Positions 305 to 6,750 of a stretch of 64,000 nt of DNA are shown piece after piece. The DNA lies in the IMG/VR virus record IMGVR_UViG_3300045988_161245, positions 96,001-160,000 of that record. One strand, 5' to 3'. Source of the DNA: a virus. Each line of letters starts with the position of its first letter. Positions within the stretch are counted from its first letter, which is position 1. The notes beneath the pieces were generated by a model that had not been told where the DNA came from, searched no databases, and saw only the letters and a program-made list of their open reading frames with translations. A program made the position numbers and the translations under genes.

Positions 305-1497
305 ATGGGTATTACATTAACTAATGAAGAATTTCAAGAAAAGTTTTATAATAAATTTGATAAAAACGAGTATACACTAATTTCTCAATATACTGGTGGA
401 TCTAATTTTATAAGAATTAGACACAAATGCGGATATGAATTTGAGAAAAGCCTAAAAATATAATTACACCAAGAGAACATCTTAATTGTCCAAAATGTTT
501 TGGAAAATTATATACTAAGGTAATTCCTGGAATAAATGATATGGCAACAACAAATCCAGAACTAATACCATTACTAAAAAATCCAGATGATGCTTATAAG
601 TATAAAACTAATACAAATAAGAAAATATATTTTATATGCCCTGTTTGCGGTAATGAACTATATAAAACAGGGAATGAAGTATATATGCATGGATTACAAT
701 GTAAATATTGTAGTGATGGATTTAGTTACGCCGAAAAATTCATGAAATCTATATTAAGCCAACTTGGAATTAACTATATACATCAATATAATCCTGGTTG
801 GGCACGACCATATAGATATGATTTTTATTTTGAATTAGATGATAAAAAATATATTATCGAAATGGATGGTGGAATTGGACATGGGAATTTTACTCGTGAT
901 GGTAAACAAGATGTTGTTGGAAAACAAATTGATGACAAGAAAGATGCACTTGCAAAATCACATAATATAAATGTAGTTCGAGTTGATTGTAATTATATTG
1001 ATATAGAAAATAGGTATGATTATATAAAAGAACATATTTTAATTTCTGAATTATCTCAAGTCTTAGATTTATCAAAAATAAACTTTTCTTTATGCCGTAT
1101 CGTTGCAGAAAAATCAATATTTATTTCAGTTTGTGATTTAGTTAATCAAGGAATGCAAAGTTTTGTAGAAATAGCTGAGAAGCTTGAAATATCAAATACT
1201 ACTGTAAGTAGATATTTAAAAACTGCTTGTGAATCTGAATATCTTGATATAGATTATAACGATCTCAAACAACAATCCCTTGATATTGGATACCAAAAGA
1301 ACAAACAACGAAACGAGAACCGTCCAAACGGATTTAATCGAACACCTGTTAAATGTATTGAAACAGGTGAAATATTTAATTCTATGAATGCAGCGGATAA
1401 AAAATATGGCGGATGTGTAAGTAGTTATTTATCTGGACGAATTAAATATACTGGTCATTTAGATGACGGAACAGTTCTTCATTGGGAACGAATTTAA
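305..1497 (+). pseudogene. Zn-ribbon + PD-(D/E)XK (Vsr/DUF559-like) homing-endonuclease-like gene, frameshifted
   Basis: The ATG-305 frame (..HKCGYEFEK) stops at 461-463. The -1 frame is open from 445 and continues sensibly (..NIITPREHLNCPKC..) into ORF 541..1497. A 1-nt loss in the A-run 454-458 would explain this. The protein has CxxC ribbons followed by a YRYDFYF..IIEMDG..GH nuclease core. Confidence 0.55.
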
Positions 1498-2133: not shown

Positions 2134-3237
2134 ATGAGAAAATTATTATTTGCTGAATATACTGATTTAAATCAGGCAAAATTTAAAGATGCAAAAGATA
2201 TTAGAACTTTTACAAAAATTTGTATTGATACATATAATGGTACACTTCAGAACCAGTCTGTAGCAGATGCCAATACTGTAATTAGAACAAAATTTAGAGA
2301 AATTGCAGGACTTTCCGAGGACGCAACTGATAATCAGATTAAACGTGCATTAGGAAGAACTGCAGTAAGAGAAGCATTATTCGAGATTATTGAGGACACA
2401 ATTGATGATACATTGGTAACAGGTTGGTCAGCAGATCCATTCTTCAGAAAATATGTTGATTTTAAGAATACAACAATCGGAGAGAAAAACAGTTTCTATA
2501 TTAAAGATGATTGCATCCTTACTGTAGCAAAACTTTCTGGTGGACATCATGCAATTGAACGTCAGAGACTTGGTGCTGGACAGACTCGTACAGTTAGTAC
2601 AAGCTACTTTGGATTAGGCGTATACATGAGTCTTCTTAGATTTATGCAAGGCGTTGAAGATTGGAATGAACTGATTAACAAAATTACAGAGGCATTTGAT
2701 CGTTATGTAAATACAATGCTTCATGATGCCGTTATGTCTGCATCTCAGCAGCTCCCAGTTCCTACAAAATGGAATATCAAAGGTGAAGCTAAAGCTGAAA
2801 ATAGAGCAAAACTGAAAAGACTTATCTCTGACGTGCAGCTTGCTACCGGTTCTAAGGCAGTAATTATGGGTACTGAAGTAGCTCTTGGAGAACTTCAGAA
2901 CTTTGGTAATGTACAGTGGATTTCTAATGAAGCAAAATCTGATATTTATAGAATGGGTCGTCTTGGATCATTCGAGGGAACAGAGATTGTAGAGATTCCA
3001 CAGGCATTTGCTTACAATGATGTTGAGCACTATCTGGAAGATGATAAGAAACTTCTGGTTATGCCTAATAATATTGATAAGTTCGTTAAGTTCGTTTATG
3101 AAGGTTCTGATGCAACATTTGAAAGAAACGAAATGGGCGAGACTGGCGATGAGACAAAAGATTACCGTATTAGAACTTGTATGGGTCTTGAGACAATGAC
3201 TAATGTACGTTTTGGTACATGGACTCTTGAGGCGTAA
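2134..3237 (+). CDS. putative major capsid protein
   Basis: 367 aa with RBS aaggagga and a strong terminator after it. Size and position fit an HK97-fold capsid protein. No diagnostic motif was verified. Confidence 0.55.
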   Translation: MRKLLFAEYTDLNQAKFKDAKDIRTFTKICIDTYNGTLQNQSVADANTVIRTKFREIAGLSEDATDNQIKRALGRTAVREALFEIIEDTIDDTLVTGWSADPFFRKYVDFKNTTIGEKNSFYIKDDCILTVAKLSGGHHAIERQRLGAGQTRTVSTSYFGLGVYMSLLRFMQGVEDWNELINKITEAFDRYVNTMLHDAVMSASQQLPVPTKWNIKGEAKAENRAKLKRLISDVQLATGSKAVIMGTEVALGELQNFGNVQWISNEAKSDIYRMGRLGSFEGTEIVEIPQAFAYNDVEHYLEDDKKLLVMPNNIDKFVKFVYEGSDATFERNEMGETGDETKDYRIRTCMGLETMTNVRFGTWTLEA

Positions 3238-3294: not shown

Positions 3295-3315
3295 TGAATG
3301 AAAGGAAAAATAACT

Positions 3316-3978
3316 ATGAAAGTTTTTGAGCTTGCAAAAGAAATTGGTGTACCAAGTTCAGATGTTGTAGCGCTATTAAAGGAAAACGAAGTTCCTGTGA
3401 AAAATCATATGACTCCACTTTCTGATGAAGCAATTGAAATGGTAAGAGCCAATTATATTACGGTTCCGGACGAACCTGAAAAAGTAGAGGTAAAAGAACC
3501 TAAAAAAGTAGTAAAAACAGACGCAGATTACAGACCAGAGGAAATGATTCCATGTAGGTCACTTTTTGCCGGCGTACTCTTGTTTACAGGTGATCATACA
3601 CACATGACATATGCGTTTAATGGTGCTGGTGACAGACGAAATATTGAATATCAGGATTTAAAAGCTGCAATGCTTCAACATAAAGGCTCTATATTTGATC
3701 CAGATATTATTATCGAGGATGAAAATCTTATCAATGACGAGCACTGGTTTGAAGTAAAGGAAGTTTATGAAAATATGTTTAACGAAAAAGATATTGAGAA
3801 AGTAATGAACCTTCCATATCGTGATTTTGAAAAAGCATTTATTCAGCTTCCAATTACAGCAAAAAACAGAATTATTACTACTTACGCTACACAGATGGAA
3901 AACGGTACATTTGAACAGTGGAACAAAGCGAAAATCATTGACAAGGTTTGTGGTACTCGTTTTGATCTGAAAATGTAA
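3316..3978 (+). CDS. protein with IF2_N-like N-terminal domain
   Basis: MKVFELAKEIGVPSSDVVALLKENEVPVKNHM closely resembles the N-terminal domain of bacterial IF-2 (recognised from memory). An alternative start exists at 3298. Confidence 0.5.
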   Translation: MKVFELAKEIGVPSSDVVALLKENEVPVKNHMTPLSDEAIEMVRANYITVPDEPEKVEVKEPKKVVKTDADYRPEEMIPCRSLFAGVLLFTGDHTHMTYAFNGAGDRRNIEYQDLKAAMLQHKGSIFDPDIIIEDENLINDEHWFEVKEVYENMFNEKDIEKVMNLPYRDFEKAFIQLPITAKNRIITTYATQMENGTFEQWNKAKIIDKVCGTRFDLKM

Positions 3979-4000: not shown

Positions 4001-4456
4001 ATGACCTACGATGAAATATTTAACAGATTTTATAATCTAATGGATGATCCAAACTTTTATAAATTACCACAGGATTTTGCGTATGATCGTATGCGTTCAT
4101 GGTTACATGACGCTGCATCAAAGCCATATATTAGGAAGAAATTTTCTCAGCTAAAATTAGATGATAGATTGTTGGAGTTAACTTACTCTCTTAATAATCC
4201 ATCAGATCAGGAGTCAGATGATGATTTTGTTATAAATATCTTCGCTCAATATATGGTGATTGGTTGGTTAAAACCACAGGTTGATAATGCGATTAATACA
4301 GCAAGGATTATTGGTAGTAAGGAAGAAAAGAACATCCAATCTAACTATAAGACGAATATAGAACGACTCGAATCTTTAGAGCGTAATCTTCGAAAATTTA
4401 TCCGTGATGATGGATATATAAATAACAGTTATATCTCCGGAGGTGAAACGTCATGA
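4001..4456 (+). CDS. head-tail connector/adaptor candidate
   Basis: RBS ggaggt. Assigned from its position after the capsid genes. Its stop overlaps the next start. Confidence 0.35.
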   Translation: MTYDEIFNRFYNLMDDPNFYKLPQDFAYDRMRSWLHDAASKPYIRKKFSQLKLDDRLLELTYSLNNPSDQESDDDFVINIFAQYMVIGWLKPQVDNAINTARIIGSKEEKNIQSNYKTNIERLESLERNLRKFIRDDGYINNSYISGGETS

Positions 4457-4785
4457 CGAAACACCGTTACGGAAAATTCAGTGATATGCAAATGTCGGAA
4501 ATTAAGAAGACATTACGAGGTTCTATTTTTTTCTTATTACAATGTGCAGATCCTAATACTTCAAGTAAATACCCAGGTAAAGACGTAAATGAAATATTTC
4601 AGAATATTCAGTATGATTTAGATGGATTGAACAGCTTACTCTTCTACCCTGTCGAGTTAGTTCCTGTGATTGAATTATTGGAAGCTGCCAGAGTTACATA
4701 CAATAAGCCGGATTCTAAATTTGAGGATTATAGAAAACTCATTTTGGATGCCGGTGTTGCAGTGCTTAAAATAAAGGAGGATTGA
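4453..4785 (+). CDS. head-tail joining candidate
   Basis: ATGA start/stop overlap with the upstream gene. Assigned by position only. Confidence 0.3.
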   Translation: MTKHRYGKFSDMQMSEIKKTLRGSIFFLLQCADPNTSSKYPGKDVNEIFQNIQYDLDGLNSLLFYPVELVPVIELLEAARVTYNKPDSKFEDYRKLILDAGVAVLKIKED

Positions 4786-4787
4786 TT

Positions 4788-6750
4788 ATGCCTACCTTTA
4801 GAGAAATGCAACAATTATACGCGAATATTGGAACAGTTGGTCAGCAGATTAAAAAACAATCTGATGATGCTATGGAAGCAACATGGGATAATTCTATCGC
4901 ATCAAGGGTTTGTTATATCTATGATTATTATCATGATGACTCTCCTACTTTGAATAGAAATATTACCTATGGACCACATACAACCAAAACTCGCATTGAT
5001 GCAAAATTTATTGTCAAATCTTATAGCTCACTGGATAAAGACCAGGTTGAGTATTATCTACAATTTAAACCAAGTCAGAAGACACAATTCGAACCAACTG
5101 ATGAACTCTATTATTTTGAAACAGATTACAGACGAAAATACGGATCAGACGATTTTGTAGGATTATATATTGATATAGCCGATGATCAAGGTATTTATCA
5201 TAGATGGCTTATCTGTACAAAAGAAATAGGCAATCAGTTTGTTAAATATAATATTCTTCCATGTGATTATTGGTTTCATTTTATTGTAAAGAAAAACGGT
5301 AAACGGTATAAACGGAAAATTTGGGGAGTAACGAGGACACAATCCTCGTACAACAGCGGATCTGTTACATGGTCCTTCCCATTAGAAATAAGGGGAAATC
5401 ATCCTTTGAATTGCTGGAAATTCCTAAAGACAATTAAACTACAACGCAAGTATGAAATATAACTAACCGTGAATGTGGCGAAAGCAGAAAAAATTAATTG
5501 TATGAGAACGAGGTTAAAACCCCTGTTCTCTTTTTTAATGGAAAATCAGCAGCGAAGCCTCGAATAGAGGAACGTTCAACGACTAAGCTACCTAAGTAGG
5601 TACTGTGGAGGACATCCGAAAGGATGAAGATATAGTCTGAACTTCTTTCGAAAGAAAGAGAAAACCGAAAGGTCTTATTTGAATTAACGAATCAAATAAG
5701 TAACGCATTTGTATGGACTGATAAGTAATTGTCCACTGCATTTGGAAACTATGCAGTGAATTTCTTCTAATTGCTGGAAACTCTTTAGAAATTTGTAAAC
5801 TACAACGCAAGCATGAAAAATGGCTAATCGTGAATGTTAAAAATTACAAATATTAGATAATCAGCAGCCAAGACTCGAATAGAGTAAGGTTCATCGACTA
5901 TTATGTAGGACAAGTGTCCGAAATGGAGAACACCTAAACCACAAGGCATGGTGAAGATATAGTCAGCACTTCATATGAGAATATGAGAAAAGCATTCGTG
6001 CTCTTTTGCAGCTTAACGAACTGTAAAAGTAACATAAGGTATTACTCTACTTCCACTGAGAACCAGTTTAAGGCAATCGTTCCGTTGAATCCAATTACTG
6101 AAGACATTTACTATGTAGAAGAAGACAATAAAAATATGCGTATAATTATTTCTGCACCTGTAGAAAAACCAAATGTATTCCAGGTAAGTAAAGTTGAAAC
6201 AGCTCCACTATTTGGACTGAAGAGACTTACTTTTGCACAGGATAAATTTGATCCTTATACAGATGGTAGAGATGATGTTGAAATTGCCAAAGGCGACATT
6301 TTTGCTATGTATGCAGATTTGTTTGATAATGAAGTACCTACTGATACTCCATTCCATACAGATACTGAGATAAAAATGGATACTATTCATTGTGATTTAT
6401 CATGCAATGCTAATAAGATTAAGATTGGCGGTAGTTATAAGTTAATTACTGCAAAATTCTTTAATATACAGGGAAGTGAAATTACAGATGAATTTATTCC
6501 ATATTTAGCAAAAAGCAGCTGGTCATGTTATGTAAAAAATAACAGACATGAAGATCCAGATGAAATCGAAGTCACGGATAATACTGATTTAATCACCTGG
6601 TTAGAGCAAAAAGAAAGCAACAAAATTAAAATTAAAATAGCAGACAATAAAGAGTATTTAACGAAAATTCTTGTAATTAAATGCTCTATAAATAAAGATG
6701 GAAGAAATATTGTTGGAGAGATTCAACTTCAAATTTCATCCGTATTATAA
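4788..6750 (+). CDS. virion structural gene split by two tandem group I introns (exons 4788..5361, 5706..5719, 6040..6750)
   Basis: RBS aaggagg lies before ATG 4788. Joining the three exons keeps one frame (..YNSG S FVWT YYSTSTENQ..) and gives 434 aa. ORF 5983..6750 has no credible RBS of its own. Confidence 0.5.
5362..5705 (+). ncRNA. group I intron A (ORF-less)
   Basis: R-like GUUCAACGACUAAG at 5574-5587 and S-like AAGAUAUAGUC at 5627-5637, with GACUA/UAGUC forming P7. P1 pairs GGAU.C with GGUCC and has a U.G wobble at U5361. P10 is 3 bp in register. GAAA-capped hairpins follow, and the last nucleotide is G5705. Confidence 0.65.
5720..6039 (+). ncRNA. group I intron B (ORF-less, paralog of intron A)
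   Basis: Shares blocks with intron A (aattgctggaaa, aaactacaacgcaag, cgtgaatgt). R-like GUUCAUCGACUA at 5889-5900 and S AAGAUAUAGUC at 5954-5964. GAGA- and UUCG-capped hairpins are present. The 5' junction has C:G in place of the U.G wobble. Confidence 0.55.

What the first reader, a model, noticed from the sequence alone, without database searches (positions are those of the whole stretch)
5362..6039. Two tandem, paralogous ORF-less group I introns separated by a 14-nt micro-exon
The 520-nt 'intergenic' gap between ORFs 4782..5462 and 5983..6750 contains two copies of a group I core. Each copy has R (GUUCA(A/U)CGACUA) and S (AAGAUAUAGUC) elements that can form P7, plus shared P3-like blocks and GNRA/UUCG-capped 3' hairpins. 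With splice sites at 5361|5362, 5705|5706, 5719|5720 and 6039|6040, the three exons join in one frame to give a 434-aa protein. Splicing from the 5' site of intron A directly to the 3' site of intron B would be out of frame. Tandem introns with a micro-exon this short are unusual for phages.
Basis: partly seen in the sequence, partly recalled or inferred. Interest (0 to 1): 0.7.

Follow-up and report, generated by a model that had tools for sequence, protein, structure and literature searches.

The report
Two group I introns, 11-nt micro-exon

Summary
The core observation holds. Rfam's group I model matches window 5354-5660 (82 bits) and 5700-5987 (72.5 bits) over its full length. No other Rfam match occurs in the 64 kb.

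Close relatives carry the same gene in four forms: no intron (L005, L001), intron B only (L013), intron B with a LAGLIDADG endonuclease ORF (L007/8/9/14), or both introns. These alleles fix the splice sites.

- Intron A is 5362-5711.
- The micro-exon is 5712-5722 (TATGGACTGAT, 11 nt).
- Intron B is 5723-6039.

The spliced product is 431 aa and reads ...SYNSG-LWTD-YYSTS..., identical in this stretch to the intron-less homologues.

Its terminal G5705 is A in several alleles, its U5719 is C in B-only alleles, and it adds a residue that no homologue has.

Both introns have a U·G pair at the 5' splice site, a terminal G, a P10 pairing and many compensatory changes. They belong to one intron family but are not simple local duplicates: A's core is closer to an intron in another gene.

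The closest documented case is Twort orf142, where two similar introns flank a 23-nt exon and exon skipping occurs. I rate this a new member of a known kind, of moderate interest. Splicing itself is inferred, not shown.

The parts
4788..5361 (+). Exon 1 of the interrupted virion gene (ATG 4788, preceded by AGGAGG at 4774-4779). It ends ...AAC AGC GGA T, one base into a Leu codon.
   Evidence: Homologues start MPTF/MPSL. The ORF's continuation to 5462 is read-through into intron A.
5362..5711 (+). Intron A, group I, 350 nt, ORF-less. P1 = 5358-5362/5371-5375 with U5361·G5372. P7 strands are 5581-5585 and 5633-5637. The terminal G is 5711.
   Evidence: Rfam RF00028 gives 82.2 bits. The MFE fold forms this P1. 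B-only and intron-less alleles lack exactly this segment. G5711 is conserved in every A-bearing allele read (all 12 listed in the Full report section).
5712..5722 (+). Micro-exon, 11 nt, TATGGACTGAT. Together with the last T of exon 1 it encodes Leu-Trp-Thr-Asp.
   Evidence: Intron-less L005 reads GGC CTT TGG ACG GAT TAT TAC and L001 reads GGT CTA TGG ACC GAT TAT TAC. L013 runs from exon 1 straight through ...CTC TGG ACC GAT into intron B.
5723..6039 (+). Intron B, group I, 317 nt, ORF-less. P1 = 5720-5724/5729-5733 with U5722·G5731 and a GUAA loop. P7 strands are 5896-5900 and 5960-5964. The terminal G is 6039.
   Evidence: Rfam gives 72.5 bits. The MFE fold forms this P1. The same intron occurs alone in L013, and with a LAGLIDADG ORF in L007/8/9/14.
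6040..6750 (+). Exon 3 (TAT TAC TCT ACT ..., stop at 6748-6750). The annotated ORF start at 5983 lies inside intron B and is spurious.
   Evidence: Alignment to uninterrupted homologues.
5368..5375 (+). Internal guide sequence of intron A. 5371-5375 pairs with the exon 1 end (P1). 5368-5371 pairs with micro-exon bases 5712-5715 (P10: U·G, A-U, U-A, G-C).
   Evidence: Read from the sequence. Conserved in the divergent allele L102, although the P1 loop differs there.
5725..5733 (+). Internal guide sequence of intron B. 5729-5733 forms P1. 5725-5729 pairs with exon 3 bases 6041-6045 (P10, 5 bp).
   Evidence: Read from the sequence. Invariant in all alleles.

Best explanation
One virion-module gene (431-aa product, three genes upstream of a YomU-like tail tube gene) is interrupted by two independent self-splicing group I introns of the same family. 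They sit 11 nt apart in the codons of a conserved SYNSG-LWTD-YY loop.

Each intron recognises its own 5' exon through a short P1 helix with a U·G wobble: GGAU·C/G·GUCC for A, and GAU·AA/UU·GUC with a GUAA loop for B. Each ends in G and aligns its 3' exon by a P10 helix.

The 11-nt micro-exon serves both introns. Its first four bases form P10 of A, and its last three form the exon half of P1 of B.

Inferred steps:
- A is transcribed and can complete both steps before B's core exists, so splicing probably runs A then B. Either order gives the same mRNA.
- B arrived first and is, or was, mobilised by a LAGLIDADG endonuclease that some alleles still encode.
- A, a family member lacking an ORF, inserted later next to B. 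Because it is only 11 nt away, it is co-inherited with B.
- Both guide sequences share the core GUCC, so occasional exon skipping (exon 1 joined to exon 3, frameshift, stop after 6 codons) is a plausible by-product.
For: Ribozyme identity:
- Full-length RF00028 matches lie above the gathering score.
- RNAalifold on A and B sequences from several alleles gives 39 of 92 or 26 of 63 predicted pairs with changes on both sides that keep the pair.
- Compensatory changes also occur within lineage A in L102.

Splice sites:
- Intron-less alleles L005 (95% aa identity) and L001 (75%) read ...GG(C/T) CT(T/A) TGG AC(G/C) GAT TAT TAC....
- L013 and L007 have the exon 1/micro-exon sequence contiguous and only intron B.
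- All 21 aligned full-length homologues have exactly four residues at the site.
- U5361, G5372, G5711, U5722 and G5731 are conserved in every allele read. G6039 is conserved in all but L002.
- The MFE folds form both P1 helices.

Order of arrival: every A-bearing allele also has B (12 loci from three collections), B-only alleles exist, and no A-only allele was seen.

Endonuclease: the L007 intron B ORF matches LAGLIDADG_3 at E 5.8e-16.

Exon flanks: the flanks of A are synonymously recoded in all A-bearing alleles (GGC CTC -> GGA TTA). This provides the U at -1.
Against: - No RNA evidence: splicing, its order and its accuracy are inferred from sequence only.
- P1 of B has only three exon base pairs. 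A competing 5-bp helix, UGGAC(5714-5718)/GUCCA(5731-5735), is more stable as a duplex (-7.2 kcal/mol against -4.2 kcal/mol for B's guide on the GGAU end of exon 1; the cognate GAU/GUC pairing was not scored separately) and uses the same guide bases.
- One allele (L002) lacks the terminal G of B and cannot be spliced canonically in frame.
- The window encodes no recognisable homing endonuclease, so present-day mobility of this allele is unsupported.
- The function of the host protein is not established. There is no Pfam hit, and only a weak structural match to a phage neck chain plus Ig-like folds.
Confidence: 0.88

Rival explanations
1. One reading: splice sites at 5705|5706 and 5719|5720, a 14-nt micro-exon, and the junction peptide SFVWT.
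For: It is in frame. G5705 and U5719 are present in this window, so the sites are formally canonical here.
Against: G5705 is A in L002, L003, L012, L102 and L107. U5719 is C in L013 and L007, where the exon runs on through GAT. This version gives five residues where all 21 aligned full-length homologues have four, and it loses the LWTD sequence that the closest homologues share. U5719 has no G partner in any P1 register.
Confidence: 0.03
2. The whole 5362-6039 segment is removed as one composite unit (twintron-like, or obligatory exon skipping), and the 11 nt form a pseudo-exon.
For: Both guide sequences contain GUCC, and B's guide can pair with the exon 1 end GGAU (-4.2 kcal/mol). Exon skipping is documented for Twort orf142 and the SIOphi terminase (PMC10136302, PMC11878797). 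Fungal tandem group I modules can splice as one unit (PMC12308204).
Against: Joining 5361 to 6040 shifts the frame and stops after 6 codons. It also deletes the LWTD codons that sit at exactly this position in intron-less alleles. The micro-exon is conserved base for base in all A+B alleles.
Confidence: 0.04
3. The two ORFs are naturally separate genes, and the ribozyme-like sequences are decayed, non-splicing remnants.
For: Gene callers annotate a 255-aa ORF starting inside intron B in many contigs (P0002-P0004).
Against: 1651 homologues were found, and the great majority of the 120 listed are uninterrupted proteins of 406-429 aa covering 92-100% of the query. Both cores score far above the Rfam threshold and keep their helices through compensatory changes. 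The micro-exon and splice-site nucleotides are conserved.
Confidence: 0.02
4. On origin only: intron A arose by local tandem duplication of intron B, not by a separate invasion from the family pool.
For: A and B share guide-sequence core GUCC, the P3-P6, P7 and P9 blocks, and the 3' tail motif TTAACGAA...AAGTAAC. Both insertion sites read GAT|TAT in A+B alleles.
Against: A carries about 46 extra nucleotides in the P5/P6 region. Its positions 48-225 are 85% identical to the L096/L100 intron in a different gene, against only two short blocks of 81% and 87% with B.
Confidence: 0.2

Closest known systems
Staphylococcus phage Twort orf142 introns I2 and I3 (Landthaler & Shub 1999, as described in PMC10136302 and PMC11878797)
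   Same: Two highly similar group I introns lie in tandem in a phage virion gene (orf142 was later identified as the tail tube gene). They flank a very short exon, and their similar guide sequences make exon skipping possible.
   Different: The exon here is 11 nt, against 23 nt in Twort. There are two introns, not three. The host is an uncultured gut phage with related contigs of roughly 180-220 kb. Splicing and skipping are untested here. Natural alleles with 0, 1, 1+HEG and 2 introns are available for comparison.
Coxiella burnetii 23S rRNA introns, and Bastillevirinae multi-intron genes (phiNIT1 ribonucleotide reductase large subunit, SIOphi terminase)
   Same: [quoted passage not shown]
   Different: The Coxiella introns belong to different subgroups and sit in an rRNA gene. 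The Bastillevirinae cases are in DNA-metabolism and terminase genes. The size of the phiNIT1 exon is not given in the text held.
Tandem organellar introns with mini-exons (Ophiostoma cob-201 with 18 nt between two group IB modules; rnl-576/577 group II introns with a 1-nt exon; PMC12308204)
   Same: Adjacent self-splicing introns are separated by an exon too short for gene callers to see.
   Different: These are fungal mitochondrial genes. Some splice as one composite unit, which is excluded here by reading frame and conservation.
Phage group I introns carrying homing endonucleases (T4 td/nrdB/sunY, SPO1 and Bastille DNA polymerase introns)
   Same: The ribozyme architecture is the same, with an extra hairpin between P7 and P3' as in subgroup IA (my inference). 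Insertion is in a conserved coding segment. In some alleles an endonuclease ORF sits in a peripheral 3' loop (LAGLIDADG in L007).
   Different: Both window introns are ORF-less, and the target is a virion gene of unknown function.

Membership tests
Group I intron (Rfam RF00028) | Conserved catalytic core (P3-P9, with the P7 R/S pairing) matching the family covariance model above its curated threshold | tested here: met
   82.2 and 72.5 bits against a gathering score of 50, model positions 1-253 of 253, for both introns. The P7 strands GACUA/UAGUC are invariant.
Group I intron (Rfam RF00028) | The 5' exon ends in U, paired with G of the internal guide sequence in P1 | tested here: met
   U5361·G5372 and U5722·G5731. 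Both helices appear in the MFE folds, and the four bases are conserved in all alleles.
Group I intron (Rfam RF00028) | The intron ends in G (omega G), and the 3' exon is aligned by P10 | tested here: met
   G5711 and G6039. P10 is 4 bp for A (5712-5715/5368-5371) and 5 bp for B (6041-6045/5725-5729), read from the sequence. G6039 is replaced in one allele, L002.
Group I intron (Rfam RF00028) | Removal restores an uninterrupted gene colinear with intron-less alleles | tested here: met
   The spliced exons give SYNSG-LWTD-YYSTS, identical in this stretch to L005 and L001. The DNA matches base for base apart from synonymous sites.
Group I intron (Rfam RF00028) | Helices maintained by compensatory substitutions | tested here: met
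   39 of 92 and 26 of 63 predicted pairs have changes on both sides. Caveats: most changes are between lineage A and lineage B, and the automatic alignment is unreliable in the P7.1/P3'/P8 region.
Group I intron (Rfam RF00028) | Guanosine-dependent self-splicing | not testable with these tools
   Needs in vitro transcription and splicing, or cDNA.
Twort orf142-type tandem introns with exon skipping | [quoted passage not shown] | tested here: met
   The exon is 11 nt.
Twort orf142-type tandem introns with exon skipping | An exon-skipped mRNA is produced | not testable with these tools
   Only the potential is shown: B's guide pairs with the exon 1 end GGAU. The skipped product would be frameshifted.
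Composite tandem intron / twintron spliced as one unit | The sequence between the ribozyme modules is non-coding and is removed with them | tested here: not met
   The 11 nt encode the conserved LWTD, and removing them breaks the frame.
Mobile group I intron with intron-encoded homing endonuclease | An endonuclease ORF inside the intron | tested here: not met
   Neither window intron has an ORF with similarity to the LAGLIDADG or GIY-YIG proteins of related introns. Intron B does carry a LAGLIDADG_3 ORF in L007/8/9/14.

The most novel reading that the evidence does not exclude
Intron A may be an ORF-less hitch-hiker that persists because it lies within the co-conversion tract of intron B's LAGLIDADG-driven homing. 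The pair would then move as one composite mobile unit.

The micro-exon can pair with both guide sequences (about -7 kcal/mol, stronger than the -4.2 to -4.3 kcal/mol computed for either guide on the exon 1 end). It may therefore act as a folding switch that sets splicing order, or that yields a regulated fraction of exon-skipped, truncated protein.
Probability: 0.15. Interest if true: 0.6.

Novelty: new member of a known kind. Interest (0 to 1): 0.4.

Why it matters
- An inter-intron exon this short is invisible to gene callers. Public annotations of this phage group split the gene into two false ORFs, for example the 255-aa cluster P0002 with 428 member sequences. The correct annotation is a single 431-aa virion protein.
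- At 11 nt, the exon is less than half the length of the Twort case. Four bases go to P10 of the upstream intron and three to P1 of the downstream one. This is close to the minimum a pair of independent group I ribozymes should tolerate, which makes it a natural substrate for studying exon inclusion versus skipping.
- The co-existing alleles (no intron, B, B with endonuclease, A+B) give a ready-made series for studying intron gain, endonuclease loss and co-conversion in uncultured gut phages.

Tried and rejected
- Megablast of the gene against INPHARED phages found only a 183-nt, 79% match of intron A's core to two Bacillus cereus phages. No close cultured relative exists there.
- PHROGs and Pfam gave no function for the host protein. 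The only hit was phrog_5251, of unknown function, on exon 1. A PDB sequence-profile search found nothing meaningful.
- The AlphaFold model of homologue P0001 (pLDDT 83) gave only a weak Foldseek hit to a phage Chi neck chain, plus generic Ig-like matches.
- I first considered P1 of intron B to be UGGAC/GUCCA. That register places no U·G at the splice site defined by the intron-less alleles, so I rejected it in favour of GAUAA/UUGUC.
- Rfam's own P1 alignment for both hits is poor and was not used.
- The Twort paper (PMC22036) is not held, so its content is cited second-hand.
- The supplements of PMC11878797 do not give the size of the phiNIT1 small exon.
- A search for A-only alleles in viral and metagenome collections found none.
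- tblastn of the two intron endonucleases against the window found no homologue.

Full report
**What is there**

Between the ORFs called at 4782-5462 and 5983-6750, Rfam's group I intron model RF00028 matches twice on the + strand. The hits are 5354-5660 (82.2 bits, E 2.3e-19) and 5700-5987 (72.5 bits, E 1.9e-16). Each covers model positions 1-253 of 253 against a gathering score of 50. A permissive scan of all 64 kb at E<0.05 adds nothing.

So two tandem group I cores are real and far beyond chance.

**One gene, not two**

The conceptually spliced protein finds 1651 homologues. The great majority of the 120 best hits are uninterrupted proteins of 406-429 aa covering 92-100% of the query. The best is P0001 (429 aa, 75% identity).

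Three clusters (P0002-P0004) are 255-aa products equal to the false downstream ORF. The same split is therefore mis-annotated in other assemblies.

In the alignment, all 21 full-length homologues have exactly four residues between the conserved SYNSG and the following YY/xY. The closest homologues read LWTD.

**Splice sites from natural alleles**

Fetching the encoding DNA gave a natural series of alleles:
- No intron. L005 (95% aa identity) reads ...TCC GGC CTT TGG ACG GAT TAT TAC TCT... L001 reads ...GGT CTA TGG ACC GAT TAT TAC...
- Intron B only, ORF-less. L013 reads ...AGC GGC CTC TGG ACC GAT|AAGTAATTGTCC......ACATAAGG|TATTAC...
- Intron B only, with about 1 kb inserted in its 3' part (L007, L008, L009, L014). 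The insert encodes a 319-aa protein matching Pfam LAGLIDADG_3 at E 5.8e-16.
- Both introns, as in the window (L002, L003, L006, L010, L011, L012, L102-L107).

These fix the boundaries:
- Exon 1 ends at T5361.
- Intron A is 5362-5711 (350 nt).
- The micro-exon is 5712-5722 (TATGGACTGAT, 11 nt).
- Intron B is 5723-6039 (317 nt).
- Exon 3 starts at 6040.

The junction GGA T|TA TGG ACT GAT|TAT TAC encodes G-LWTD-YY, identical in this stretch to L005 and P0001. The product from ATG 4788 is 431 aa.

G5705 is A in L002, L003, L012, L102 and L107. U5719 is C in L013 and L007. Given the intron-less sequences, no other placement satisfies both 'exon ends in U' and 'intron ends in G'.

**Ribozyme anatomy at the splice sites**

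Intron A:
- P1 is G5358-C5375, G5359-C5374, A5360-U5373, U5361·G5372, C5362-G5371.
- P10 is U5712·G5371, A5713-U5370, U5714-A5369, G5715-C5368.

Intron B:
- P1 is G5720-C5733, A5721-U5732, U5722·G5731, A5723-U5730, A5724-U5729, closed by a GUAA tetraloop.
- P10 is A6041-U5729 through C6045-G5725.

Unconstrained MFE folding of each intron with its flanks forms both P1 helices. The bases involved are conserved in every allele, including the divergent L102, where the P1 loop of A differs.

The 11-nt exon therefore gives its first four bases to P10 of A and its last three to P1 of B.

In all A-bearing alleles the exon flanks of A are synonymously recoded (GGC CTC -> GGA TTA). This creates the U at position -1 and the P1/P10 complementarity.

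**Structure conservation**

RNAalifold on eleven A and B sequences predicts 92 pairs, 39 with changes on both sides that keep the pair. The tool run on nine sequences gives 26 of 63.

Most of this covariation is between lineage A and lineage B, in P2, the P4-P6 domain, P6, P9 and the two 3' hairpins. Within lineage A, L102 shows U-A to C-G changes in the hairpin between P7 and P3' and in the last 3' hairpin.

Caveat: the automatic alignment is wrong around P7.1/P3'/P8, and some long-range pairs are spurious. The local helices are the reliable part.

**How the two introns are related**

A and B share the P3-P6 blocks, P7, the guide core GUCC and a 3' tail motif (TTAACGAA loop, AAGTAAC, 6-7 nt, G). 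But A carries about 46 extra nucleotides.

Over positions 48-225, A is 85% identical to an intron in L096/L100. That intron sits in a different gene, a large (>673 aa) protein of unknown function (not characterised here), and carries a GIY-YIG-like ORF. Against B, A matches only in two blocks of 70 and 45 nt (81% and 87%).

So they belong to one family that is spread through these gut phages (13 viral contigs hold a 23-nt core pattern). They are probably not a simple local duplication.

Every A-bearing allele found also has B (12 loci, three collections). B occurs without A. A was never seen alone. I infer that B is the older resident and A the later arrival.

**Mechanism (inferred)**

Each intron is a complete ribozyme and B works alone in relatives, so the two should splice independently.

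Transcription order favours A first. Its second step needs only G5711 and the first bases of the micro-exon, which exist before B's core is made.

After A is removed, B sees the same upstream context as in B-only alleles.

There are two complications:
- The micro-exon's UGGAC pairs with the GUCC core of both guide sequences at -7.2 to -7.4 kcal/mol. That is stronger than the -4.2 to -4.3 kcal/mol computed for either guide on the GGAU end of exon 1. It is a competing, non-productive helix.
- B's guide can also pair with GGAU at the end of exon 1, U·G included. This allows exon skipping of the kind documented for Twort orf142, and modelled with tandem Tetrahymena introns (PMC10136302). Skipping removes 11 nt and stops translation after six codons, so it would be a cost and not an isoform, unless it is regulated.

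**Mobility**

The window encodes no homologue of the LAGLIDADG or GIY-YIG proteins, so both introns here are ORF-less.

In relatives, B's endonuclease would cut intron-less alleles at the site where B is inserted. A lies only 11 nt away, so it would be co-converted with B. This hitch-hiking idea is untested.

**Host gene**

There is no Pfam family. PHROGs gives only an unknown-function family on exon 1.

The gene lies after the 151-aa and 110-aa ORFs at 4001-4456 and 4453-4785 (a candidate capsid region lies further upstream, see Noticed in passing) and three genes before a YomU-like tail tube gene (Pfam PF27173 on the syntenic gene).

An AlphaFold model of P0001 (pLDDT 83) is mostly beta. Its weak best structural hit is a phage Chi neck chain, followed by Ig-like folds.

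The introns sit in the lowest-confidence segment of the model (the only runs of 3 or more residues with pLDDT <50 in this region are 186-190 and 192-194), which includes the invariant S187 and G191. I call it a virion neck- or tail-proximal protein of unknown function.

**Comparison with known cases**

- Twort orf142 (a tail tube gene) has two very similar IA2 introns flanking a 23-nt exon, with exon skipping (PMC10136302; PMC11878797).
- Coxiella 23S rRNA has a 34-nt exon between two introns (PMC10136302).
- phiNIT1 ribonucleotide reductase has a small exon found only by cDNA sequencing, and SIOphi shows dominant exon skipping (PMC11878797).
- Fungal mitochondria have tandem introns with 18-nt and even 1-nt exons (PMC12308204).

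The arrangement is therefore known. The 11-nt length is shorter than the phage cases I could document, and the allele series is new.

**Verdict**

Two of the four splice sites are corrected. This is a new member of a known kind, of moderate interest.

**Unresolved**

L002 reads GAT where the other alleles read AGG at the last three bases of intron B. It loses the terminal G and duplicates the micro-exon's GAT. No canonical splice then keeps the frame. It may be a dead allele, a recombination scar or an assembly artefact.

Noticed in passing
L002:1785-1800 (equivalent to window 6037-6039): One A+B allele reads ...ACATAGAT|TATTAC instead of ...ACATAAGG|TATTAC. The terminal G of intron B is lost and the micro-exon's GAT is duplicated. 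Canonical splicing would then frameshift.
   Followed up: partly
L007:506-1477 (also L008, L009, L014): In B-only alleles of the same gene, intron B carries a 319-323-aa ORF with two LAGLIDADG_3 matches and N-terminal HTH motifs. It is inserted just before the last 38 nt of the intron, which are 100% identical to the window.
   Followed up: yes
L096:5132-6309 and L100:5348-5697: An intron whose core is 85% identical to intron A interrupts a different, large (>673 aa) gene in other gut phages. It is followed by a 250-aa GIY-YIG-like ORF.
   Followed up: partly
L098:2856-4811 (minus strand): At least three Rfam group I hits, plus a fourth core-pattern match, lie within 2 kb and fragment a structural-looking gene. 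A GIY-YIG-like ORF sits next door at 5343-6182. This may be another multi-intron gene with short exons.
   Followed up: no
window 5360-5361, 5713, 5719: The exon bases flanking intron A differ synonymously between A-bearing alleles (GGA T..TA TGG ACT) and A-less alleles (GGC CTC TGG ACC/ACG). This fits co-conversion, or selection for P1/P10 pairing.
   Followed up: partly
window 541-1497 (+): A 318-aa ORF just upstream of the 181-aa and 367-aa ORFs (1567-2112 and 2134-3237; no Pfam match above threshold, possibly capsid-module genes) has Cys-rich N-terminal motifs and weak HTH matches. Its C-terminal stretch resembles the C-terminus of the L096 GIY-YIG intron protein (tblastn E 0.002). It may be a free-standing endonuclease-like gene.
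   Followed up: no
window 3298-3978 (+): A 226-aa ORF in the virion module has an N-terminal match to the IF2_N domain (Pfam PF04760, E 1.3e-09). This is unexpected for a phage structural region.
   Followed up: no
window 5714-5718 vs 5371-5375 and 5731-5735: The micro-exon's UGGAC is complementary to the guide sequences of both introns (-7.2 to -7.4 kcal/mol). That is stronger than the -4.2 to -4.3 kcal/mol computed for either guide on the exon 1 end, so it is a potential misfolding or switch element.
   Followed up: partly
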